Of a stretch of 42,500 nucleotides of DNA, positions 5,753 to 42,500 are shown piece after piece. The DNA comes from Patescibacteria group bacterium (GTDB lineage: Bacteria; Patescibacteriota; Gracilibacteria; BD1-5; UBA6164): NCBI GenBank assembly GCA_965656795.1, contig CBFHLZ010000002.1, positions 1-42,500 on the forward strand, read 5' to 3'. Under the pieces are notes generated by a model. The model was not told the origin of the DNA, ran no database searches, and was given only the letters and a program-made list of their open reading frames with translations. Position 1 is the stretch's first letter. Every line of letters begins with the position of its first letter. Position numbers and translations under genes: made by a program.

Positions 5753-7975
5753 ATGTCGTATATAAAGATAGATAAAAAAGTTGAAGCCATCATCCGAAAA
5801 GTGAAAAAATATATGACATGATATACTCCAGCACATATTCATGAGCAAATTTGGAATGCCTATATTTATGCACGTGATGCGCACGAAGGACAAATGAGAA
5901 AATCAGGAGATCCATATATTATCCATCCAGTTGAAGCAACAGATATTTTACTTTCTTTGCAACCGGATATTCATACGATTCAAGCTTGTTTGTTGCATGA
6001 CGTGATTGAGGATACTCCAAAAACAAAAGAAGATATTTATGAAGAATTTTGAGACGAAGTAGCATTTTTATGTGAATGATTAGCTAAATTATCAAATGTT
6101 CGTTATAAATGAAAACAACGTGAAATTGGAAGTCTGAGAAAAATGTTTATTGCCATGGCAGAAGATTTGAGAGTTATATTCGTAAAACTTTCAGACAGAC
6201 TCCATAATATGCAAACTTTAAAATATCATCCAAAACCAGAAAAAAGAGAAAAAATTGCACTCGAAACACTTAATATTTTTTCTCCAATTGCAGATAGATT
6301 ATGACTCTATAATTTAAAAAATTCTCTTGATGAAGAATGTTTTAAAATACTTCATCCGAAAGAATATAAAAATATTGCTAAACAACTCAAATCGCTCGAA
6401 CAATCAAGTGAGGCATTTATGAGAGATGCAAAGCAAGAAATTACTCAAGTGATTTGAAATGAAATAGAAAATTATGAAATTGATTACAGAGTAAAATCTA
6501 TGTTTTCGATTTATAAAAAAATGCAAAAAAAATGACTGACAGATATTAAAAATTTATATGATATTTTTGGGACAAGAATTATTGTAAAAGATTTATCTGA
6601 TTGTTATAAAACCCTAGGTATTATCCATAATAAATGGTCTCCACTCCCATATAGATTTAAAGATTATATTGCTCTACCAAAACCAAATGGATATAAAAGT
6701 ATTCATACGACAGTTGTTTGATTATTAAAACAACATAGACAACAACCAACTGAAATCCAAATTAAAACATTCGAAATGAAACAATACTCTGATATTTGAG
6801 TGGCTGCGCATTTTGAATATAAAGAAAGAGGTTCTGTAGTTTCAAAAGAAGTTGATTGGGTGAAAGAATTAAAAGATGTAGCACAAAATTTAGAAGATAA
6901 CGATTTTATGGGGTCTTTAAAAATAGATTTATTTAAAAATAGAATTTTTGTTTTTACTCCAAAATGAGATCTGATAAATCTTCCGCATGGTTCAACTCCA
7001 GTAGATTTTGCATATTATTTACATACTGATTTATGAGATCATTTAAGTATTGCTCGCGTGAATGAAAAAGTTCATCCACTCGATCAAGAACTTCATAATG
7101 GTGATAGGGTAGAATTGGTTATTGATAAAAATAAAAAACCAAACCCATTTTGGATTTGATTTGTAAAAACAGCAAAAGCTAAAAATGCTATTAAATGATT
7201 TTTGAAAAAAGAAGACAAAGACATTCATAGAGAAAGAGGGAGAGATTTAGTAAATAAATATCTTAAAAAACTCTGACATGAATGATTAGATAAAGATATG
7301 ACGTTATTAAAAAACTTAAATGATCGTGTTTATTCTCAAGAAGAACGTTGGCAATTATTAGAACAAGTAGGGAATTTAAGTCTCAATCCTAATAGTATAA
7401 TTAAAAAAATAGTAGCATCAAATCAACGTATTTTTGATAGAATAGATGAAAAAATAGAAGAAGAAGCTGTAGAATTGGAAGACGAAAATACACAAGTTAT
7501 CAATGAAGAAAATGATGTAAAATCAAACGATATTATTATTTGATGAGAATCGAATTTAGATTATAAGCGTTGTTATTGTTGTAGAAGAACACTTCCAATT
7601 GAAATAGTAGCGCATATCAATTCTTTTTGAAAATTTACGATTCATAGACGTGATTGTAAAATTTTAACAGGAGTGAATAAAGATAGATTGTTGCCAGCAT
7701 ATATTCAAGGAACTCAAGATGAAGAATTATGATATCATATCAATATTGTATTTAAAAATAATACATGAATTTTGAAAATTCTTACAGAAATAATATTTTC
7801 TATGCAAATAGATATAGATGAAATATTATCAAAAAAATTATGAAATATGTATATGTCTTTTGATTTGAAATTAAAAGTACAAAATCACGATTTTATGGTA
7901 ATAGATAGATTTATAGAAAGAATTCAAATGACATTTGCAGATGATTTAATTAATTATAAATCAGAAGAATTATAA
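5753..7975 (+). CDS. rel: bifunctional (p)ppGpp synthetase/hydrolase, long RelA/SpoT homologue
   Basis: HD domain ([14 protein letters not shown]...[21 protein letters not shown]), synthetase domain ([21 protein letters not shown]), and TGS- and ACT-like C-terminal regions. 740 codons. Confidence 0.92.
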
Positions 7976-8028: not shown

Positions 8029-8298
8029 TTATTTTCTTAATGATAATTTTTCAATTACATTGTTATATTTTTCAACATCTTTTGATTTTAAGTAAGCAAG
8101 AAGTTTTCTTCTTTTTGCTACCATTTTTAAGATACCTCTTCTTGAGTGGTTATCTTTTTTATGTTCTTGTAAGTGGTCTTTTAAATTTTCGATTTCTGCA
8201 GTTAAAATTGCAACTTGTACAGCAGGAGTACCAGTGTCTCCAGCTTTTTCACCAAAATCGGCTACGATTTGTTGTTTTACTTCTTTAGTAACAGCCAT
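8029..8298 (-). CDS. rpsO: 30S ribosomal protein S15
   Basis: [60 protein letters not shown]... is a typical S15. The start is the internal ATG of track ORF 8029-8355. No UGA codons. Confidence 0.95.
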
Positions 8299-8461
8299 AA
8301 TATGTATTTTACATAATAAAAATAGTGTGATGACCAGAAAATACACTAGTAACATCAGCCAGCAGATTATATGAAAAAATAATAAAATGACAAATTAAAA
8401 TTGAAAAATAATCATTGGGAGGTAATATAGAAAAAATTACTTTTAAAAATCTCTCAAAAAT

Positions 8462-33967: not shown

Positions 33968-34434
33968 GGGGCTAATCTTGGTTTCTATTAGGAGAATTGT
34001 CCGTCTTATATGCTATCTGGGAGGTGTTTGTGACTTCCATAATCAATCATAAACAAACATAAATGCAAAAAATAGAATTGCAGGAGGTTTAAAAGCTTTT
34101 ACTAAAGCTCCTTCATTTACGTTAGCTAACGCAGCGTAATAGTCTCGCTCCACAAAAGAGAGTTTTAGAGACGTAGCCTTCCCAAGGGATGATGACATTT
34201 GTCTGCTACACATTTTTAGAAAATTTTAACGAGAGAAGTTTCTAAAAATTATTAAATTCCCGTCTTGTAGGATCGAGTATGATTTTGTTTTGTACCTACG
34301 AGTATTAATAAATATAATCTTTATATACACTTTTTGTTTGTTCTCTATGTATATAAATATCAAAATAAACTATGATAGTAGAAGTATTTGACTGGCCTCT
34401 TAAGACATGGGTTCAAATCCCATTAGCTCCACCA
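33968..34434 (+). ncRNA. ssrA: tmRNA (SsrA)
   Basis: 5' GGGGCTA pairs with 3' TAGCTCC-ACCA (G3:U70). T arm GGGTTCAAATCCC. Tag ORF 34065-34136 = AKNRIAGGLKAFTKAPSFTLANAA, followed by TAA TAG. Confidence 0.9.
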
Positions 34435-35959
34435 ATTGAATTTTAGACACTTTCGATACTTCGAAAGCCTGATAAATAAGAGAAAAAGTAGGTGTTCATA
34501 CCTGCTTTTTTTTGTTGATTGGAATTCCTTGTGGAAATATGTTTTTTATCAAGTCTTTTTGATTTTCTAAATTTCATTTTTTCCAGATATCTAAGCTATT
34601 TTTGAACTTTTTAATTTTATTTTTTAGGGGTGTTCAGACATTTTTTAGCTCTTGATTTATTTCTTGAGTTTTTTTCTTTTTTTCGAGTTCTAATTTTTCA
34701 ATTTCTCATTCATAATTTGAAATTAAAATTTCAGATTGAGTATTTCAAATTCTATTAATATAAGTATGAATCTTTTTATCAATTTGTTTAATTTCTTGTT
34801 GTAATTTTTCTTTATAAATAATTTTATCTTTATTTCTTTCTTCTATTTTTTGTTTCACAATATATTCAAAAGCTTCAAAAAACTCATCAGACGGTTTAAT
34901 ATTTTCTAAATAACTTTCAAAATCTTTATGAAAATTATCTCTATTAATTCATTTTCATTTCATTGAAGATTTTTTGGGATATGTATAGTATGGAAATTTT
35001 TCTTTTTTTCATCTACTCCAACCACTACTAAGCATTCCATTTGATTCTTCACAGTATAAGAAACCACGTAAAGGGAAATCTGTGCTGATATCATTTCTAT
35101 TCGCATTGCTTTCTATATATCTTTGTTTTTTAGATTTTGAAATGAGTCTTTGTTGAATTTTTTCATAAGTTTCCATAGAAATAATACCAGAGTGTTTAGC
35201 TTTTCTAAGAGATATATTCCACTTTGGTAATTCTAAATATCCAGTATATAAAACATTTCTGAGTAAATTATTTATAGTCGAAAGAGATTTATAATTTCAT
35301 TTTTTATTTATATCTACAATATGTAATCATTTTTTATGGAAGAATTTAATAAGTTCTGAGGTAGTATCAATAATTCCATTACTATAATCTTCAAATCATT
35401 TTTTGATTACTTTTGCTTTTTGTTCATCTTGAACAACTATTTTTCATCCATTTTTACATTCAGAATAAGTGAATCAAATAGGAACTCTAAAACACCAAAA
35501 TCACTGCTCTAATCTTGCTCTCATTCTACTATTTACTCTTTGTTTATTTTTGTCTTTTTCGTATTGTGCTACTACAACTGAAATATTTTCTTTAAAATCT
35601 CATTCAGGTGATTCTTCAAATTGAAAATTTGGACTTGCTAATTCAACTCATCTTTTTTTGAATTCAGCCTTTAATAAACTATGAACTTGAATATCTCTTG
35701 ATAATCTATTTAAATCTTCAAATATCACTATATAGTTTTGAGATTTATTAGAATCTATATATTTAAATAGCTCCTGTATAGATTTTCTTTCAAATACTCA
35801 TCAACTTACTCATTCGTCATTAAAAACCTTCTCAACCGAAATTCAGAGGGTATTTTCAGCATAATCTCTACACCTTTTCTCTTGTGATGAAAGTCAATTT
35901 CATTCTTTGACCTGTTTTGCAGATGAAACTCTACAATATATTATTCATTTAAGATTCAT
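34400..35959 (-). CDS. large serine recombinase (resolvase catalytic domain + recombinase domain + zinc ribbon/coiled coil)
   Basis: MNLKGIIYCRVSSAKQ (catalytic Ser context), LNRLSRD, YTGY, a Cys-containing CEESNG region and a long coiled coil. 519 aa under code 25, with TAA located inside ssrA. Confidence 0.85.
34488..34513 (+). terminator. ssrA rho-independent terminator
   Basis: GTAGGT-GTTCAT-ACCTGC followed by T8. Lies antisense within the recombinase reading frame. Confidence 0.55.
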
Positions 35960-36503
35960 GATTTGATATTAAGGTATATATATTTTTTTTAAGATTTGGA
36001 TTATCTTTAATAAGTCATAAACTTTCTCATAAAGTTTCAAATTTCTCACATAATTCAGGGTTAATAACTTTTGTACTAATAAATAAGAAATCATATTCAG
36101 ATTTATAAAACATATAAATTCAAAAAGCCATAAAAAGTTTATTATTCAAATCTCAAAATAATGCTTTATGCATTTCAATACATTTATAAATTTGTATTTC
36201 AACAAATCATTCTAATTGAATATCACTATCAATATAATCCTTTTCATCATTACGAGAATGCTTACAAAAATTAGCAAATTTATTAAATTTAAAGAAGAAA
36301 GCTTTCTTTTCTTTTTCGCTTACTTCTGGATTGATTCAATCTTCAAGTCTAAGTCAAATTCATTTTTTTCTATCTAAATCTTCTAAAAGTGTTTTAGTAG
36401 AGTGAATTAGAGTATTAATTGCTATATAGCTTTCATCATTTAAAAATAATTTTATTGCAGTCTCAATTTGTTCTCTAGCAATATCTTCTTTATAGTATTT
36501 CAT
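35949..36503 (-). CDS. hypothetical protein, translationally coupled to the recombinase
   Basis: 184-codon code-25 ORF whose last 11 nt overlap the recombinase ATG (35957-35959). No motif recognised. Confidence 0.6.
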
Positions 36504-36597
36504 AAAAATAATTATTAAATATGTAATTCATTGTCTACATATATTTATATGTAAAATATAAATATTGTAAAGGTATTTTTTAAAGAAGAAGGTAATA

Positions 36598-36714
36598 TTA
36601 ATTACCTTCTAGTGTTTCTATATAAATTTCTGCCAGTTGTGATAAGAGTTGTATAATCTGTTCTTTTTCAGATTCTGTATATCAAGAGGGAAGTAAGTCT
36701 TTAATTTGACTCAT
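36598..36714 (-). CDS. possible 38-aa acidic small protein
   Basis: Its ATG overlaps the last codons of Rep. MSQIKDLLPSGYTESEKEQIIQLLSQLAEIYIETLEGN. The stop lies in the 10-bp perfect hairpin AGAAGGTAAT-ATTA-ATTACCTTCT. Confidence 0.3.
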
Positions 36715-37774
36715 TGATTCTTTCTTCTTGTTTTGCGAATATATATTTTGTTTCTCTTATAGATATTGAATCTATATATTTTTCAGGATCAAAAATATTT
36801 CCCTCTATTCATAACGCTATATCGTGTTTTGTAATATCAGATAATAATAAACATCTGATTAAAATATCAACTGGGCAGGCTCATAATTTTAGAATTGTTT
36901 TTGCATATCATTGAAACGAACTGATATATCTATCTCTAAGAATTTGATTTGCTTGTAACTCTTCGAGATTAATTTTTTTATTGAGTCGTTTTAATTTTTC
37001 TATATCTTGTGTTTTAATTTTTTCAAATAATTTTGTGTGCTTTTCTATATATTTTATAAATAGGTTTAATATATAACTTTTGTCTAATAGGTTATTAATT
37101 TTAAAATTTTTAATTAATTCTGTTCGAAATTCTAATTCTATTCTTGTGATATTATCCTCGAGTAAATAATCTCAATAAAGAACTTGTTTATTTTTCTTTT
37201 TAATATCTTTTATTTTATCGTAGATTCTAATTAGAAGAGCTTTATTATATCTCTTTTGATATTCTCAAATATAGTGTGTTTCTACTTCTCATTTTGCACC
37301 AAAGTATGAAGCTCATTTTTGACTCAAGTCATTAAAATTTTTTAAAATATTATCAATTGGTTTTTTAATATCTATTGCTAAATCGAATCTTTTAAGAGTA
37401 TTAAATCTTTTCCCATTGTTTAAATCGGTTCTATCAAGCATTAAATATGAATCTATAAAATCTATAATTTCATTTAACTCCATTATCTGAAAAGCACTTC
37501 AATAGACTTTGAAATAATCTCGTGTTTCAATTGAAGTATTTAATTTCTTTCAAATATAAAAAGCGAAACAGGGAAAATTATTTTTCCAAAAATCTACTTT
37601 AAATTCATAATCTCTGAGTTTATCACTTTTTTTCAAAGTAAATTCATCAAAGATTAAGTAATCGGTATTACTATTATTTATTCACTCAAGAAGCATTTCA
37701 TAGTTGCAAAAAGTTCCGTAAATTTCAATTTCATCCACATTAAAATTGAATATATCTGATTGTTTTAAAAACAT
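36701..37774 (-). CDS. Rep_trans-like rolling-circle replication initiation protein
   Basis: 357 aa. KRFDLAIDI, THYIGEYQKRYNKALLIRIYDKIKDI and ITRIELEFR follow the RiDlAiD / tvYiG...riYdK / RvElel pattern of the replication initiation factor family. Confidence 0.65.
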
Positions 37775-37872
37775 ATTTATTATATTTAATAAGTAAAAAT
37801 AATACTTATTAAGAATTCTTATACTTTTTCCTTTTATTAAGAGGTTAAAGTAACTACTAGTAATATAAGTTA

Positions 37873-38003
37873 CCCCACTATTATGGATAGTGGGGATTTT
37901 TTCATTTTTTCCATTTATTTTTGTAGTTATTCAAAGATAAATTGGCAAGTTTATTGGTTCAAGGCCGCGAACCAAAACTTGCAATTTATCTTCTCATAAC
38001 TGT
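37873..38003. other. structured non-coding region upstream of Rep (candidate replication origin)
   Basis: CCCCACTAT-TATGG-ATAGTGGGG hairpin (37873-37895). Then a 22-25 bp arm hairpin GATAAATTGGCAAGTTTATTGGTTC-AAGGCCGC-GAACCAAAACTTGCAATTTATC (37936-37990) with a GC-rich loop. Confidence 0.4.
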
Positions 38004-38062
38004 TGGATAGATATGGAAAAAATAAAAAAAGAAATGTAAAAAATTAGCTAATTTCGGAACTT

Positions 38063-38104
38063 AAAAAAAAGCACCTGCAAAAGGATAGACCTTTTGCTAG
38101 TGCT
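38063..38104 (-). terminator. rho-independent terminator of 38158-39168
   Basis: The minus strand reads AGCACTAGCAAAAGG-loop-CCTTTTGCAGGTGCT followed by T8. Confidence 0.6.
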
Positions 38105-38157
38105 TAGTTTATTAATAAGGTTGTAGTATTGAGGTGTACACCTTTTCTAAAATTTTA

Positions 38158-39168
38158 TTAAAAATCTCTATATAATGCTCATCATTTAAACCTTAAAAAA
38201 AGTTTATTTGTTTTAAATCAAGTTTTAAATCTTCTATTGATAGCGTTTTTTGTATCATTTACAATATGAGAACTTTTATAAAATAATTGTATATTATCTG
38301 TTTGTTCTAAATGCTTAAATAAATCAAATTTATCTATTCATATATTTTTATCATTATTTTGAAAAATTTTTACTAACATCATATAAGGCTTTTCATCTTT
38401 TGTAAAACTTATAGAATTTCCATTATATCTCATTATTCATTCTCTTGGGAAAAATTCTACATAATCTTTATGTATTTTTTCTCAAGTTATTTTTTCATAT
38501 AGTTTTACTAAATCTTCTTCTTTACATAAATAGTTTTCTAATTCAGCATCATTAAATAAGTATTCAATTTGTTTTTTAACTGAATTAACTCAATAATCAG
38601 TTTGGATTCTTTCTAAATATTTTCTTGAAAAATCATCTTTAATATTACTTAATCAAAGATAAATTCTTCTATTTCTATTATCTATTTCAGTTATTTCATT
38701 TAAAAAATCTTCACAAATTTTATGATATTCTTCATTCTTAGATACATATATTTCTATAAATCAATAAAGTTCTAAGTTTCTCAAAAATATTTTTCTATTT
38801 TGATGTATAGTCTCAACTTCTTCTTCTCATATATGATGATAATATTCTTTTATATTTTTAGGGATTAGTGTAGTTCATTTATTAACATTAAATATTCCAC
38901 TTTTTCTATCTTTTACATCTATTCATTTATATATAAAATCTCTTAAATCTTTCATAAAGTCAGAGTATTCTTTTATACTTTGAAAATTCATTTGTTTTTC
39001 AAAATCCTTAGCAACATCTTCAAGATATAAACTTTGGGGAATTTTTTTGGCTTTCCTATACTTGGGTATTCATTTTATTAAATCATTTATTACGTCTACA
39101 AATATTAGTTTTTCTATATCTTTAGAATTGTTATATATATCAATTATATTTTTAAAATCTGCTTTCAT
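38158..39168 (-). CDS. hypothetical protein with possible C-terminal winged-helix DNA-binding domain
   Basis: 336 aa under code 25. The C-terminal ISFTKDEKPYMMLVKIF...NAINRRFK resembles OmpR/CadC-type wHTH spacing. The N-terminal 250 aa have no motif. Confidence 0.55.
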
Positions 39169-39370
39169 TAATATAAGTTAAAATTAAATTTTAAATCAAT
39201 TATATTAAATAATGCAAAATAAAAAAGTCCAATCTCCCTTGAGATTTAGACTTTTTTTTATATTTACAAAATATTTAATATATATGTTATTATAAAATGT
39301 AATCTATTGAATGTAGATTTATTGACTACAAAAATTATTATTTAGTTTAATTATCTTAAAAAAAATTATT

Positions 39371-39574
39371 ATGGATATTAAAGAAAAATTATGAAATAGA
39401 ATAAAAGAGATAAGAAAAGAAAAAAATATATCTCAAGAACAATTATGATTTAAATCTAAGTTACATAGAACTTACTTATCATCAGTTGAAAGATGATTAA
39501 AAAATATTTCAGTTGAAAATATAGAAAAAGTAGCTTTAGCTTTATGAGTTGAAGTTAAAGATTTATTTAATTAA
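39371..39574 (+). CDS. XRE-family HTH protein, likely RM controller (C) protein
   Basis: 67 aa. IKEIRKEKNISQEQLGFKSKLHRTYLSSVERG is a canonical HTH_3. Lies immediately upstream of the endonuclease gene. Confidence 0.75.
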
Positions 39575-39584
39575 AAATTAACTT

Positions 39585-40301
39585 ATGAAAAAATTAAATC
39601 ATAATGAGTTGTTAGAAAAATATTGAGAATTAAAAAGTGAATGGGAAAGACAATTAAAATGACTTTGAATAAAATTACCTAAATTAGAAAATTGAGATAA
39701 ATATACTATAGATTCTTTAGTATTAATATACTTTTTTATGAATTTTAGAAAAGTAGTTACTAAGCAACAATTAACAAATTTTGTTCAATTTTATAAGCCA
39801 GAAATCAATGATGTTCAACAATGAAGACATTTATCTCAACAAAAATGATGGTATATAATTTCTTGACAAAGATGAGATGAAAAATGTAAAGAAATGGTAG
39901 TAAAACCTTGAGAGTATATGTTATATTCATTAGAAGAAATGTATCCTTGATATATTTTGAACAGAAAAACAACTTTAAATAATTGAGATTTTGAAGAAAT
40001 AAAAAAAATATATGATTTTAGATGTGCTACTTGTGGTTCAAAAGAATGAGAAGAAAATTTTTTATATAGAGGAAGTATTACAAAACTTGAAAAATGACAT
40101 ATGAATCCTTTAAAAGATTTAACATCAGATAATACAATCCCTCAATGTGATAAATGTAATAAAGCTTATAGAAATTATTTTGAATTTGATAGAAAATGAA
40201 GAGTAAGGTCTGTTACAGATCCAAAGATTATATTAAAATCAGATATTAATATACAAAAAGAAATGTATGAAATATTAAAAAAGAAAATAGATAGTAATTA
40301 A
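39585..40301 (+). CDS. type II restriction endonuclease candidate, HNH (beta-beta-alpha-Me) type
   Basis: 238 aa. CATCGS...GHMNP...PQCDKCN has a Cys4/His arrangement typical of HNH nucleases. Positioned between the C protein and the convergent C5-MTase. Confidence 0.6.
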
Positions 40302-40315
40302 TTACTATCTATTTT
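40284..40315. terminator. perfect 32-bp palindrome at the R/M gene junction
   Basis: AAAATAGATAGTAATT|AATTACTATCTATTTT. Contains both stop codons. Confidence 0.6.
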
Positions 40316-41401
40316 AAATATTTGTTTATTTAGTTCATTCATAATTGCTTTTGATAACAAAGGCGGGACAGCATTTCAAATTTGTAAATTTTTTGTTCAT
40401 CTACTTCATTTAAAAACAAAATTATCTGGAAATGATTGTATTCTTGCTCATTCTCTTGTAGATAGAGGTCTAGAGTGTATAGGATGAATACATCTACTAG
40501 AGGAAGGAGTTCATAAATTTCTAGTTATAGTTGTTGAAGGTTTATCCCACCATAATTTTCAATATGTATTTTTAAATCAAGACTTAGGTTTTATATCAAT
40601 ATATTCATCTCATAAATCTGAAGCACATTGTCAATCCTTTAATACTTCCATTAACTTTATTAAATTTTCTCAATTTTTAGGTTTATCGTGGTCAGATATT
40701 TTGTCATTATTTTTTCTTAAATATTTTTGATAATCATTTTTTGCTTCATCTTTATAAGTTTTTATTCAATTATGATTAATTTCTGGTAAATCAGAAATTG
40801 CATCTGATAAAGTTATATGTTTTTTTTCTCAAGATTTAGGTTTATCAAAATGAGTAGGTTGTGGAAAGTCAAAATCTACTCATACTTTATTACCTATTAT
40901 TATAACTCTTTCTCTTATTTGTGGGACTCAATAATCAGCAGCATTTAATATTTTATATTTTACTTTGTATCATAGTCATTCAAATAGTTCTATAATATAT
41001 TTTAACAACTCTCATCATCACATTGAAGTTAATCATTTAACATTTTCAAATATAAAAGCTTTAGGATTGACTTCTTTTAAAATCCTATAATATTCTTGAA
41101 ATAAGTTTCATCTGTCATCATCCATTAATCTTTTTCAAAGTGTACTATAAGCTTGACAGGGAGGTCATCATATAATTAAATCTACTCATTTAGCTTTATT
41201 TCATAAATCATCTAATATTTTTTTATATGATATGTTTTTAATATCATCATTATAAACTTTTACTCAAGGATGATTATGTTCATAAGTTTCAGCCATATCT
41301 TTTAATATTTCAACAGCTGCAATAATTTTATATTCTTTAGAATGAAAAAAAGGATATGATAATCCTCAGACTCAAGCAAATAAATCAATAGCTTTAATCA
41401 T
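40298..41401 (-). CDS. DNA (cytosine-5)-methyltransferase
   Basis: Motif I DLFAGVGG, motif IV GGPPCQAYS, ENV, QIRERV, and motif X GNAVPP. Most Gly codons are TGA. 367 aa. Confidence 0.92.
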
Positions 41402-41573
41402 TTATATTTTTTAAAATTAATATTTAATTTAATATACTAATTTATTAAAATATTACAAGTTAAAAATGTAATTTATCGAATACATAAAAAATGTTATTAT
41501 TTTACTTTTAGTATTTTGTATTATAATCTAAATTAATATTTATAAATTATATTTTATTTTTTAATAAAAAAAG

Positions 41574-42094
41574 ATGATAATTAAAAGTATAAAAATAGAA
41601 AATTTTAAGTCTATTGAAAATATTGAATTTGATGTAAAAAAATATTGAGATAGTTATACAACTATGCTTCTTTGAATAAATGAATATTGAAAAAGTAATG
41701 TTTTGCAAGCAATGTCTTTTTTAGATACACCGAAAGAAAAATTTGATGATTATATAATTCTGATAATGTTTTTACAATTAGAGATTTAGTCTGAGAAATA
41801 AAGAATGAATGAACAATAGAAGATACCTTATGAATAAATTTTATTGAAAGTTTTTTTAAGAAAAATTATAAGAAAAAATTTTCTAAAGAATCTACACTAG
41901 TTTTTAAAGATGAAAAACCTTTTATTAATCAAATAAAAATATTTTTACAACAAAATAATGAATATAGTGATGAATTTATATTTGATTTTAAAAAAGAAAT
42001 ATCAGAATCTTTTAATCCTACTAAGACAAAACTCAATTCGGATTTTCATTTACTAAAATCATTAATTGATAAAATAGATGAAAAATTATCTTAA
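41574..42094 (+). pseudogene. frameshifted, truncated AAA_15/OLD-like ATPase N-terminal remnant
   Basis: IKSIKIENFKSIENIEF...LLGINEYGKSNVLQAMSF (typical N-terminus and Walker A) ends at TAG 41787-41789. The reading frame continues in another frame to TAA 42092-42094. No Walker B or nuclease part. Confidence 0.5.
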
Positions 42095-42101
42095 TAAAGT
42101 G

Positions 42102-42130
42102 TTCAAATTATCTCTTATAAACTCCACCAA
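42102..42130 (+). repeat. degenerate duplicate of the ssrA 3' end (candidate attR)
   Basis: GTTCAAATTATCTCTTATAAACTCCACCAA versus ssrA GTTCAAATCCCATTAGCTCCACCAA (34410-34435). Confidence 0.5.
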
Positions 42131-42185
42131 ACATGTAAAACAGATGATCTAAAAATATTTTATTTAGAGATCAGTATAAAAATTA

Positions 42186-42228
42186 AAAAGAGATAGGAAA
42201 AATTAATTTCTTGTCTCTTTTTGTTTTT
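42186..42228 (+). terminator. possible terminator
   Basis: AAGAGATAGGAAA...TTTCTTGTCTCTT imperfect stem followed by T-rich sequence. Confidence 0.35.
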
Positions 42229-42282
42229 GCATTTTCTGTTAAATTATAGTATAATAATTACAATAAAAATTACTTTAAAAGT

Positions 42283-42500
42283 ATGTGAGTAGATTTACCA
42301 CCAGTAACATCAGCTGAAATATGATCAGAATTGCAAAAACCTCAAGCCCAAGAGGTTGTTTCAGTATGAGAATGTAAATCTCCTGACTTTCAAAAACAAT
42401 TTGATAAGCTACAAACTCTAACAAAAGAAAAAACTGAAAAACTTCAAGAAGAAATGCAGTATTCAGAGAAGCAAAAAGAAATATTAAGAAAAATTTATTG
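42283..42500 (+). CDS. hypothetical protein, N-terminal part (3' end outside window)
   Basis: ATG 42283, open to the window end under code 25 (MGVDLPPVTSAEIGSELQKPQAQE...). Confidence 0.45.

What the first reader, a model, noticed from the sequence alone, without database searches (positions are those of the whole stretch)
33968..42130. ~7.7 kb integrative element inserted at the 3' end of ssrA, combining serine recombinase, rolling-circle Rep and an RM cassette
Everything from the base after the tmRNA CCA to 42094 is accessory: a serine recombinase, an unknown protein, a Rep_trans-like initiator, a hairpin-rich non-coding region, a second unknown protein, C-R-M genes and an ATPase remnant. 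At 42102-42130 there is a decayed second copy of the ssrA terminus. It keeps the T-loop GTTCAAAT and the exact C-rich 9-mer CTCCACCAA (34427-34435 vs 42122-42130), which is unusual sequence in this AT-rich DNA. Together these look like attL/attR of an integrated plasmid-like element. Mobile elements of code-25 CPR bacteria are very poorly described. An ssrA-targeting element using a serine rather than tyrosine recombinase together with an RCR replicon is an unusual architecture.
Basis: partly seen in the sequence, partly recalled or inferred. Interest (0 to 1): 0.8.

Follow-up and report, generated by a model that had tools for sequence, protein, structure and literature searches.

The report
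Integrative plasmid-like element at tmRNA gene
A 7.7 kb mobile element sits at the end of the tmRNA gene of a recoded (UGA = glycine) Gracilibacteria genome, and its serine integrase gene contains its own attachment site, so integration cuts off the last 14 codons of the gene and leaves them at the far end of the element.

Summary
ssrA lies at 33968-34434. A 7,695 bp insert (34436-42130) follows it. The insert carries a large serine recombinase (LSR), a Rep_trans-fold initiator with a conserved hairpin origin, a C/R/M restriction-modification cassette and a frameshifted AAA_15 ATPase remnant.

The "decayed second copy of ssrA" at 42101-42130 is not a decayed duplicate. Read on the minus strand, 42086-42130 encodes LVEFIRDNLNTLLR*. 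This is the native C-terminal tail of the recombinase seen in relatives whose gene is uninterrupted (29.9 bits, E 3.6e-8; next best hit in the window 9.9 bits). So attP lies inside the 3' end of the LSR gene, and integration replaces the tail with ssrA-derived codons.

GTTCAAAT sits 8 nt from the core in ssrA and 13 nt from it in the P arm. This is the 5 bp attB/attP offset described for LSR zinc-ribbon motifs. It holds in every element and contiguous attP examined here.

A close relative (88.6% nt) has an empty site, and its homology stops exactly at 34435.

Of 116 full-length homologs, 74 end in tRNA- or tmRNA-derived codons. The only precedent found is the Dehalococcoides ssrA islands with DsiB (2011). 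Verdict: a new variant of a known kind. No circular junction was found, and activity is untested.

The parts
33968..34434 (+). ssrA (tmRNA gene), the integration target. It stays intact after integration.
   Evidence: Rfam RF00023, 68.5 bits, E 1e-24.
34411..34418 (+). B-arm motif GTTCAAAT (the tmRNA T-loop), 8 nt upstream of the core. Putative zinc-ribbon-domain (ZD) motif in the attB register.
   Evidence: The LSR 5 bp rule is taken from PMC3783163.
34427..34435 (+). attL core CTCCACCAA (tmRNA acceptor end, CCA, plus one base). The crossover lies inside it.
   Evidence: Exact 9-mer shared with attR. Homology to the empty-site relative L028 ends exactly at 34435.
34436..34513 (+). P' arm. It contains an inverted GTTC-type motif 6 nt from the core, a conserved hairpin (34450-34467) and a terminator-like hairpin followed by T8 (34488-34513). 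This stretch replaces the native ssrA 3' flank. All of it is antisense inside the recombinase coding sequence.
   Evidence: Ungapped comparison of 16 elements. Folding of 14 of them: the first hairpin forms in 13 of 14 and the second in 13 of 14, with differing stem sequences.
34400..35959 (-). Large serine recombinase gene as it stands in the integrated state (519 aa). The last 11 codons, LMGFEPMS plus stop, are read from ssrA.
   Evidence: Pfam Resolvase E 2.5e-25 and Recombinase E 1.3e-6. Many ~520-aa homologs. dN/dS 0.18 against L027.
35949..36503 (-). ORF of 184 aa, function unknown, not conserved in sister elements.
   Evidence: No hit in Pfam, PHROGs, NCBIfam or PADLOC. No tblastn match in the other loci.
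36701..37774 (-). Rep_trans-fold protein of 357 aa. Either a rolling-circle replication initiator or a MOB_T-like relaxase.
   Evidence: AF2 model pLDDT 81. The top six Foldseek PDB hits are RepSTK1 and RepDE (4CIJ, 4CWC, 4CWE), E ~2e-7. PF02486 is hit by 4 of 33 homologs. The gene is adjacent to the LSR gene in L001, L033/L034, L035 and L036.
37868..38001 (-). Candidate double-strand origin. It has a long inverted repeat (37925-38001) and a GC-rich hairpin CCCCACTAT/ATAGTGGGG (37873-37895) followed by GGTAAC.
   Evidence: The region is conserved upstream of the Rep gene in 5 elements: 40 predicted pairs, 16 with compensatory changes, consensus -33.5 kcal/mol.
38158..39168 (-). ORF of 336 aa, a backbone gene of unknown function. 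Its terminator is at 38077-38097.
   Evidence: 11 homologs, none with a Pfam domain. Weak homologs occupy the same position in L035 and L036. The AF2 model is unusable, pLDDT 38.
39371..39574 (+). Controller (C) protein of the RM cassette.
   Evidence: Pfam HTH_3 E 2e-15. PADLOC Control_protein E 1e-23.
39585..40301 (+). Putative HNH-type restriction endonuclease (238 aa).
   Evidence: The assignment rests on its position between C and M and on weak PHROG HNH endonuclease hits, E 3e-5. No PADLOC, Pfam or NCBIfam hit.
40298..41401 (-). C5 cytosine DNA methyltransferase.
   Evidence: PF00145 E 2.4e-76. PADLOC MTase_II E 1.5e-110.
41574..42094 (+). Frameshifted, truncated AAA_15 (OLD/Gabija-type) ATPase remnant.
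   Evidence: The N-terminal 58 aa match PF13175 positions 1-54 of 374, E 2.8e-11. The frame then changes, and the ORF ends against the P arm.
42086..42130 (-). attR P arm, which is the orphaned native 3' end of the recombinase gene (LVEFIRDNLNTLLR plus stop). It contains GTTCAAAT (42101-42108) 13 nt from the core and the core CTCCACCAA (42122-42130).
   Evidence: Tail HMM 29.9 bits, E 3.6e-8; next best in the window 9.9 bits. It aligns with contiguous attP sites in L002, L003 and L006. Comparable orphan tails occur in L036 and L033.
42131..42223 (+). B' arm and the displaced native ssrA terminator (17-pair stem, 42184-42223).
   Evidence: Terminator scan. Empty sites in other genomes have a hairpin shortly after the CCA.

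Best explanation
Window 34436-42130 is an integrated 7.7 kb integrative and replicative element.

Integration. Its large serine recombinase recombines an attP that lies inside the last ~25 codons of its own gene with an attB formed by the 3' end of ssrA (T-loop, acceptor strand and CCA). The crossover falls within CCACCA(A/T). ssrA is therefore left intact. The recombinase gene loses its native 14-codon tail, which ends up 7.7 kb away at attR, and acquires 11 ssrA-encoded codons instead.

Site recognition. The enzyme probably reads the T-loop sequence GTTCNA with its zinc-ribbon-type domain. The same motif is present in the P arm 5 bp further from the core. This is the attB/attP discrimination rule of large serine integrases.

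ssrA expression. The P' arm supplies a hairpin and an intrinsic terminator that replace the displaced ssrA terminator.

After excision. Excision would restore the full recombinase gene on a circle. The Rep_trans-fold protein could then replicate that circle, or nick it for transfer, from the conserved hairpin origin upstream of its gene.

Cargo. The cargo is a C-controlled type II RM system plus a dead ATPase gene. Sister elements carry other defence cargo.

What is shown: the boundaries, the split gene, the motif offset, the empty site in a relative, family-wide tRNA/tmRNA targeting and the Rep fold. What is inferred: the crossover dinucleotide, ZD-motif recognition, present-day activity, the replication mode and the excision factor.
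For: Boundaries:
- Homology to the close relative L028 (88.6% nt; flanking HD protein 92% aa) ends exactly at 34435, and L028 has no insert.
- The 9-mer core occurs only at the two ends.
- The orphan tail at 42086-42130(-) scores 29.9 bits, E 3.6e-8, against an HMM of 15 intact tails.

Generality:
- L036 (tRNA-Lys, 6.7 kb element) has an orphan tail at its far end, 26.8 bits. L033 (tmRNA, 7.7 kb) has one at 16.8 bits. L035 has a weak one.
- All P arms read GTTCAAAT-13 nt-core. All targets read GTTCNNNN-8 nt-core.
- This 5 bp shift matches the ZD-motif rule in PMC3783163.
- The Asn-Leu-Asn codons that encode the motif use rare codons: TTG 8% of Leu, CTG 2% of Leu, AAC 9% of Asn.

Family:
- 74 of 116 full-length homologs end in reverse-read tRNA or tmRNA sequence, and 18 carry native tails.
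- This was verified at loci with tmRNA (L001, L033, L035, L039), tRNA-Lys (L036-L038) and tRNA-Phe (L040).

Mobility:
- Recombinase dS against L027 is 0.63, versus 1.30-1.38 for the flanking genes. dN/dS is 0.18.
- L013, a close relative, keeps only the last 41 codons as a scar.

Rep and origin. Replacement terminator. Displaced native terminator.
Against: - No circular (attP) junction of this element was found. The metagenome scan gave one related attP-like junction (L032) whose tail is out of frame, and the viral scan gave nothing.
- None of the full contigs tested, including two with intact-tail recombinases (L002, L004), has terminal overlap, so none is shown to be circular. One intact-tail gene (L006) sits in a chromosomal context next to a tyrosine integrase.
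- The right flank of the empty-site relative is not homologous to window 42131-42500. The empty site is therefore proven on the left side only.
- The crossover dinucleotide is unresolved. The identity blocks place it in CCACCA(A/T), but the inverted GTTC motifs in attP centre on the first two core bases.
- Gracilibacteria members lack a detectable Zn_ribbon_recom domain and its cysteines.
- No recombination directionality factor was identified.
- The element carries a dead ATPase gene.
Confidence: 0.85

Rival explanations
1. [quoted passage not shown] On this reading the element is an old, immobilised insertion.
For: GTTCAAAT and CTCCACCAA are shared with ssrA with an indel between them. The element holds a dead ATPase gene. 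No circular junction was found.
Against: The 5-nt spacing difference is identical in four integrated elements and three contiguous attP sites. The segment encodes a conserved protein tail, 29.9 bits. No tyrosine integrase is present in the element. The recombinase is under purifying selection and is younger than its flanks.
Confidence: 0.04
2. The boundaries and the split gene are real, but this copy is domesticated or inactive. The truncated-tail recombinase cannot excise, and the element is now a fixed RM island.
For: No recombination directionality factor was recognised. There is an ATPase pseudogene. No attP junction of this element was recovered. L013 shows that such elements decay in place.
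Against: All backbone ORFs are intact. dN/dS is 0.18, and recombinase dS is half that of the flanks. An empty site exists in a relative with 88.6% nt identity. attL and attR cores are identical.
Confidence: 0.25
3. The Rep_trans-fold protein is a MOB_T-type relaxase that nicks an oriT for mobilisation. It is not a replication initiator, which would make the element an integrative mobilisable element rather than an integrative plasmid.
For: MOB_T relaxases of Tn916- and ICESt3-type elements belong to the Rep_trans superfamily (own knowledge). Related intact-tail recombinases travel with relaxase and coupling-protein genes in L002-L004.
Against: The closest structures are plasmid RCR initiators. 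No HTH N-domain typical of MOB_T was seen in the model. No coupling protein or T4SS gene is present in this element.
Confidence: 0.3
4. The similarity at 42101-42130 is due to chance in AT-rich DNA.
For: The local alignment score of the ssrA end against this site (26) is exceeded elsewhere in the window.
Against: 0 of 100 shuffles give the two-block pattern. The tail HMM gives E 3.6e-8. The site lies exactly where accessory genes end and a terminator begins.
Confidence: 0.01

Closest known systems
Dehalococcoides ssrA-specific genomic islands with the DsiB serine recombinase (McMurdie et al. 2011, PMC3146451)
   Same: A ~520-540 aa serine recombinase on the reverse strand next to ssrA, with its 3' end overlapping attL. 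A short repeat of the ssrA end marks the far boundary. A TTCAG-type motif lies just upstream of that repeat. The authors speculated that the gene may be complete only on the circle.
   Different: There is no DsiA partner recombinase, and no RecF, ParB or Mom module or pseudo-tRNA. The core is 9 bp instead of 20 bp. The backbone has a Rep_trans-fold gene plus a hairpin origin, and the cargo is an RM system. The host is a UGA = Gly Gracilibacterium. Here the orphan tail is shown to match intact tails, and the 5 bp motif offset is documented. Sequence relatedness to DsiB itself could not be tested.
Phage large serine integrases (A118/LI, Bxb1, phiC31, SPbeta SprA)
   Same: Resolvase plus Recombinase domain architecture. 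Short att sites. A shared motif placed 5 bp closer to the centre in attB than in attP (PMC3783163).
   Different: The target is an RNA gene end rather than a protein-coding gene or intergenic site. attP lies inside the integrase coding sequence. The zinc-binding cysteines are not detectable in the Gracilibacteria clade.
SSV-type archaeal tyrosine integrases, whose attP lies within the int gene
   Same: Integration into a tRNA gene partitions the integrase gene itself (PMC8371274 listed; otherwise own knowledge).
   Different: The enzyme family is unrelated (tyrosine versus serine). SSV integration splits the gene into two large parts, whereas here only the last 14 codons are exchanged and a full-length ORF persists.
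Tyrosine-integrase islands at tRNA and tmRNA genes (Williams 2002/2003; Islander)
   Same: They use the 3' end of ssrA or tRNA genes and restore the gene. The element provides the 3' flank.
   Different: The recombinase family differs. Those islands have longer identity blocks with true direct repeats and no 5 bp register shift.
pT181/pC194-type Rep_trans rolling-circle plasmids and integrative RCR elements such as pSAM2
   Same: A Rep_trans-fold initiator sits next to a hairpin-rich origin. pSAM2 is an integrative element with a rolling-circle replicative form (mentioned in PMC3146451).
   Different: Sequence similarity to Rep_trans is marginal (best E 4e-4, in 4 of 33 homologs). Only 45 homologs exist, and those whose loci were fetched lie in this element family. 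The nick site is unknown.

Membership tests
Large serine recombinase (integrase) | N-terminal resolvase catalytic domain with the catalytic Ser | tested here: met
   PF00239 E 2.5e-25, residues 6-153. The motif YCRVSS is present. PDB hits are TP901-1 Int and TnpX.
Large serine recombinase (integrase) | Recombinase domain (RD) following the catalytic domain | tested here: met
   PF07508 E 1.3e-6, residues 179-272.
Large serine recombinase (integrase) | Zinc-ribbon domain with four Cys and an embedded coiled coil | tested here: inconclusive
   PF13408 is detected only in distant homologs (P0062 onward), not in the window protein or in P0002-P0058. The corresponding segment of the window protein has one Cys, against four in P0063. 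No structure of the recombinase was predicted.
Large serine recombinase (integrase) | attB and attP share a distal motif shifted by 5 bp | tested here: met
   The left arms have GTTCAAAT at 8 nt (B) and 13 nt (P) from the core, in 4 integrated elements and 3 contiguous attP sites. The rule is from PMC3783163. The right arms are not resolved.
Large serine recombinase (integrase) | Identical central dinucleotide at the crossover | tested here: inconclusive
   The shared cores are CTCCACCAA in the window and CCACCAT(T) in L036. The exact dinucleotide cannot be assigned.
Dehalococcoides DsiB-type ssrA islands | Serine recombinase on the reverse strand next to ssrA, with its 3' end overlapping attL | tested here: met
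   The ORF spans 34400-35959(-) and overlaps ssrA 34400-34434.
Dehalococcoides DsiB-type ssrA islands | [quoted passage not shown] | tested here: met
   A 9-bp core lies at 42122-42130. It is shorter than the 20 bp reported for Dehalococcoides.
Dehalococcoides DsiB-type ssrA islands | Second small serine recombinase (DsiA) and the RecF/ParB/Mom/RNAP-domain integration module | tested here: not met
   No second Resolvase domain, and no ParB, RecF or Mom hits, in any element ORF.
Dehalococcoides DsiB-type ssrA islands | Sequence or phylogenetic relatedness to DsiB (ACZ62382) | not testable with these tools
   The DsiB sequence could not be fetched, and cluster look-ups gave no organism names.
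Rep_trans (PF02486) rolling-circle initiators | Significant match to the family profile | tested here: inconclusive
   The window protein has no hit at E <= 0.01. 4 of 33 homologs hit PF02486, best E 4.4e-4. The PDB profile search was empty.
Rep_trans (PF02486) rolling-circle initiators | Rep_trans fold | tested here: met
   The six best Foldseek hits are all RepSTK1 or RepDE, E 2-5e-7, probability 1.0, TM 0.34-0.47. TBP-fold proteins come next.
Rep_trans (PF02486) rolling-circle initiators | Catalytic Tyr, and a nick site in an origin hairpin | not tested
   Invariant Tyr 168, 185, 203 and 242, plus RFDLAID and TRIELEFR motifs, are present. Conserved hairpins lie upstream. No assignment of the catalytic residue or the nick site was made.
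C-controlled type II restriction-modification system | Controller protein, methyltransferase and endonuclease in one cassette | tested here: inconclusive
   C matches PADLOC Control_protein at 1e-23. M matches MTase_II at 1.5e-110. R is supported only by weak HNH hits.

The most novel reading that the evidence does not exclude
The exchange of the C-terminal tail may be functional rather than incidental. On this reading the native tail (VEFxRxNLNxL, conserved even in distant clades as VDMVRKSWNSL) is needed for attP x attB integration, or it blocks excision. Replacing it with tRNA- or tmRNA-derived codons would then change the enzyme's directionality or activity. The element would carry a self-contained integration/excision switch without a classical directionality factor. 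More broadly, a cross-phylum clade of serine integrases may read the universal T-loop plus CCA end of tRNA and tmRNA genes.
Probability: 0.2. Interest if true: 0.8.

Novelty: new variant of a known kind. Interest (0 to 1): 0.6.

Why it matters
1. It gives a precisely delimited, apparently complete mobile element for Gracilibacteria (UGA = Gly). A full-text search for "Gracilibacteria" together with "serine recombinase" returned no papers. The element also shows how RM and other defence cargo moves between these genomes.

2. It turns a 2011 side remark about Dehalococcoides dsiB into a testable rule. A widespread clade of large serine integrases targets the 3' end of tRNA and tmRNA genes, and each member keeps attP inside its own coding sequence.

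3. The att sites can be read directly from genome sequence: the gene's own tail gives the P arm, and the tRNA T-loop and CCA give the B arm. The targets are among the most conserved sequences in bacteria. This makes the clade a candidate source of integrases with predictable landing sites in many hosts.

4. It shows that ORF tails of the GFEP, GIEP or GLEP type on serine recombinases are a practical marker of integrated copies.

Tried and rejected
- ARAGORN found no tmRNA in the window. Rfam did.
- Table-11 ORF listing was useless because UGA is a sense codon.
Homolog ids were used instead.
- Pfam, PHROGs, NCBIfam and PADLOC gave nothing for the 184-aa and 336-aa proteins.
- The AF2 model of the 336-aa family was too poor to search, pLDDT 38.
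- The PDB profile search with the Rep alignment was empty.
- The scan for the P'-arm sequence found nothing in viral contigs. In metagenome contigs it found only one 1.8 kb contig, L032, an attP-like junction with an out-of-frame tail.
- No fetched full contig has terminal overlap, so no circular form is shown.
- The right flank of the empty-site relative L028 and the scar relative L013 does not match window 42131-42500. The window ends 370 nt after attR.
- A dyad-symmetry scan of attP gave no clear centre in this AT-rich DNA. The central dinucleotide was left open.
- RNAalifold on the ungapped P'-arm alignment was uninformative because hairpin registers differ. Per-sequence folding was used instead.
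- Cluster look-ups returned no organism names for distant homologs, so a direct link to DsiB could not be made.
- No orphan tails were found within 10 kb in L007, L037 or L038. Those elements are probably longer, or their tails differ.

Full report
OBSERVATION. The window has 25.6% G+C, and its genes are readable only if UGA is a sense codon. Opposite the 23 UGA codons of the recombinase gene, standard-code homologs carry Gly in 130 of 253 aligned cells, and Trp is not among the eight commonest residues there. TGG aligns with Trp in 43 of 44 cells. This is genetic code 25. Rfam places a 467-nt tmRNA at 33968-34434 on the + strand (68.5 bits); ARAGORN missed it. CTCCACCAA occurs only at 34427-34435 and 42122-42130. 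GTTCAAAT occurs on the + strand only at 34411 and 42101. The two-block pattern has 2 matches, against none in 100 shuffles.

GENE CONTENT (code 25).
- Large serine recombinase, 34400-35959(-): Resolvase E 2.5e-25, Recombinase E 1.3e-6.
- Unknown ORF of 184 aa, 35949-36503(-).
- A 357-aa protein, 36701-37774(-). It has no direct Pfam hit. Its AlphaFold model (pLDDT 81) matches only Rep_trans rolling-circle initiators at the top of a PDB search (4CIJ, 4CWC, 4CWE; E ~2e-7). Of 33 homologs, 4 hit PF02486.
- A conserved unknown ORF of 336 aa, 38158-39168(-).
- A controller protein: PADLOC Control_protein E 1e-23.
- A putative HNH endonuclease, with weak support only.
- A C5 methyltransferase: PF00145 E 2.4e-76, MTase_II E 1.5e-110.
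- An AAA_15 ATPase remnant from 41574, which keeps profile positions 1-54 of 374 and then shifts frame.

THE KEY POINT: attP IS INSIDE THE RECOMBINASE GENE. The recombinase ORF does not stop before ssrA. It reads 36 nt into it and ends ...LVELMGFEPMS*. Its homologs fall into classes by C-terminus.
- 74 of 116 full-length proteins end in reverse-read tRNA or tmRNA sequence, such as MVELMGFEPMS, MVELDGFEPTS, MVGHPGLEPRT...NWANNP or VEMPGIEPGS.
- 18 end in a different, conserved tail, such as MVEFVRNNLNNLLD or MVDFVRENLNFLFK. In distant clades this tail reads VDMVRKSWNSLE...
- The remaining 24 have other tails.

Read on the minus strand, 42086-42130 encodes LVEFIRDNLNTLLR*, with stop codons just upstream in the same frame. 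An HMM of 15 such tails, searched against all 2,127 six-frame peptides of the window, scores this orphan at 29.9 bits (E 3.6e-8). The next best score is 9.9 bits. The "second copy of the ssrA terminus" is therefore the severed native 3' end of the recombinase gene. Joining 42086-42130 to 34436 onward rebuilds a 522-aa protein. It also rebuilds an attP that aligns, without gaps, with the contiguous gene ends in L002, L003 and L006.

THE 5 bp REGISTER. In ssrA, GTTCAAAT (the T-loop) lies 8 nt from the core. In the P arm it lies 13 nt from the core. The same 13-nt spacing is seen in L033, L035, L036, L002, L003 and L006 (L032 has 12 nt). The same 8-nt spacing holds in their tmRNA or tRNA-Lys targets. 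Rutherford et al. showed that the zinc-ribbon-domain motif of LI integrase occupies positions 16-24 in attP half-sites and 11-19 in attB half-sites. That is a 5 bp shift, and they found it in most serine integrase systems (PMC3783163). The motif is encoded by Asn-Leu-Asn codons AAT-TTG/CTG-AAC. TTG, CTG and AAC make up only 8%, 2% and 9% of their synonymous sets in this genome. This suggests selection on the DNA as well as on the protein.

BOUNDARIES AND MOBILITY. A scan of GTDB species representatives for the tmRNA 3' end gave 19 loci. Four have a recombinase (or a remnant of one) reading into ssrA. In most of the others the CCA is followed by unrelated sequence without a recombinase ORF, often a terminator hairpin.
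- L028 is a close relative: the flanking HD-domain protein is 92% identical, and nucleotide identity is 88.6% over 2.5 kb. Its site is empty, and the blastn alignment ends exactly at window 34435.
- L013, equally close, keeps only 91 nt of the P' arm, which is the last 41 codons of the recombinase. This is a deletion scar.
- L027 is a more distant species (flanking proteins about 60% identical) with a recombinase 81.5% identical. Recombinase dS is 0.63, against 1.30-1.38 for the flanking genes, and dN/dS is 0.18. The recombinase is therefore constrained and younger than the host divergence.
- On the right side, a 17-pair terminator at 42184-42223 fits a displaced ssrA terminator.
- The window ends 370 nt after attR, and neither relative matches that stretch. 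The right flank therefore lacks a direct empty-site comparison.

GENERALITY. Complete sister elements show the same layout.
- L036: tRNA-Lys target, 6,735 bp, orphan tail MVEFLRKNLNTL at 26.8 bits.
- L033/L034: tmRNA target, 7,680 bp, orphan at 16.8 bits.
- L035: tmRNA target, 8,636 bp, weak orphan with a mutated core.

Their backbone is the same: a ~340-aa protein, a ~360-aa Rep_trans-fold protein and the recombinase. Their cargo differs: a BglII-type RM system; an N6/N4 methyltransferase with an HTH protein; or DUF2726 with an HTH protein. Relatives that target tRNA-Lys carry AIPR, GmrSD and type I RM genes. Distant, standard-code members sit against tmRNA next to smpB (L039) and against tRNA-Phe (L040). 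In L036 the two cores are ACCCACCAT and CTCCACCAT, which limits the crossover to CCACCAT(T). In the window it must lie within CTCCACCAA. The inverted GTTC-type motif in the P' arm lies 6 nt from the core. That would centre a symmetric attP on the first two core bases, which does not agree with the L036 constraint. I leave the central dinucleotide open.

WHAT THE ELEMENT SUPPLIES TO ssrA. The first 80 nt after the CCA are antisense to the conserved ...KKQVGTPTFSLIYQ... part of the recombinase. They form a hairpin and then a second hairpin followed by a T-run. Stem sequences differ among 14 elements, but the folds are kept. This looks like a replacement 3' flank and terminator for ssrA.

REPLICATION MODULE. 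Upstream of the Rep gene, five elements share two features: a ~30-bp-stem inverted repeat (window 37925-38001) and a GC-rich hairpin (37873-37895) followed by GGTAAC. There are 40 predicted pairs, 16 of them with compensatory changes. This is a good candidate for a double-strand origin. It could instead be an oriT if the protein acts as a MOB_T-type relaxase.

COMPARISON WITH WHAT IS KNOWN. The closest precedent is the Dehalococcoides ssrA island family. [quoted passage not shown] They have a 20-bp ssrA repeat and a TTCAG... motif upstream of it. The authors remarked that dsiB might be fully functional only on the circle (PMC3146451). The present element shares that logic. It lacks DsiA and the rest of that integration module. 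It has a different backbone (Rep_trans fold plus origin) and a shorter core, and it comes from a different phylum with a different genetic code. I could not test sequence relatedness to DsiB. A search for Gracilibacteria together with serine recombinase found no papers. Searches for serine integrases with attP inside the gene turned up only the archaeal tyrosine (SSV-type) analogy.

VERDICT. The mechanistic reading of the right-end repeat is corrected, and the claim of an unprecedented architecture is tempered. This is a new variant of a known kind. The att sites are unusually well resolved, and the family-wide rule is testable. Present-day activity, the crossover dinucleotide, the excision factor and the role of the tail exchange remain open.

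Noticed in passing
L013 (CAXHZN010000004.1), about 6370-6493: A close relative of the window organism keeps only the last 41 codons of the recombinase (93% identical) next to ssrA. This is a deletion scar of the same element type. The window (full element), L028 (empty) and L013 (scar) are three states of one site.
   Followed up: partly
window 34436-34513, and the same position in 13 other elements: Two hairpins lie antisense inside the recombinase coding sequence. The second has a GTTCAAA loop and a T-run. Stem sequences change between elements but the pairing is kept. They are probably a replacement ssrA terminator, and the first may also be part of the P' half-site.
   Followed up: partly
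recombinase homologs P0001-P0058 compared with P0062 onward: The Gracilibacteria clade has no detectable Zn_ribbon_recom domain, and the corresponding segment has one Cys instead of four. Distant clades keep the domain. How the distal motif is read without zinc ligands is unclear.
   Followed up: no
L006, 7735-11575: An intact-tail recombinase (unsplit attP) sits in a 50 kb chromosomal contig directly after a tyrosine integrase gene. Either a larger island carries the serine-recombinase element as a passenger, or intact-tail copies are not always free circles.
   Followed up: no
L002, L003, L004: Intact-tail recombinases of the same family lie on contigs with MobC, a relaxase, a TraG-like coupling protein, DnaJ and a TIR-domain protein. 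The same integrase module therefore also serves larger mobilisable or conjugative elements.
   Followed up: no
L036-L038, L039: The cargo of sister elements is almost entirely defence: BglII-type RM, AIPR, GmrSD, type I RM, DUF2726, and a reverse transcriptase with an HTH protein in L039. The integrase clade seems to act as a shuttle for defence genes.
   Followed up: partly
P0003, P0009, P0018, P0029, P0033, P0023, P0042: A third class of C-termini shares the Leu/Met-Val (or MVGH) junction codons and then diverges, for example LVMICIVIFLV or MVGHYKQLANFFYKIS. These may be attP forms of other target classes, secondary integration sites or tandem junctions.
   Followed up: no
L032, 1380-1450: This attP-like junction has GTTCAAAA 12 nt (not 13) from the core, and a stop codon directly after LVE. 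It may be a frameshifted tail or a junction between tandem elements.
   Followed up: partly
L028, 53-700: The empty-site relative has a different C5-methyltransferase-like ORF just downstream of ssrA (24% identical to the window enzyme). The region after ssrA may be a general hotspot for RM genes.
   Followed up: no
window 8242-8357 (-): Rfam reports a ribosomal protein S15 leader (45.1 bits, above gathering) in this recoded genome.
   Followed up: no
window 33968-34434: The tmRNA is long (467 nt) with large insertions relative to the Rfam model. ARAGORN did not detect it here, although it detected the tmRNAs of L033, L035 and L039.
   Followed up: no
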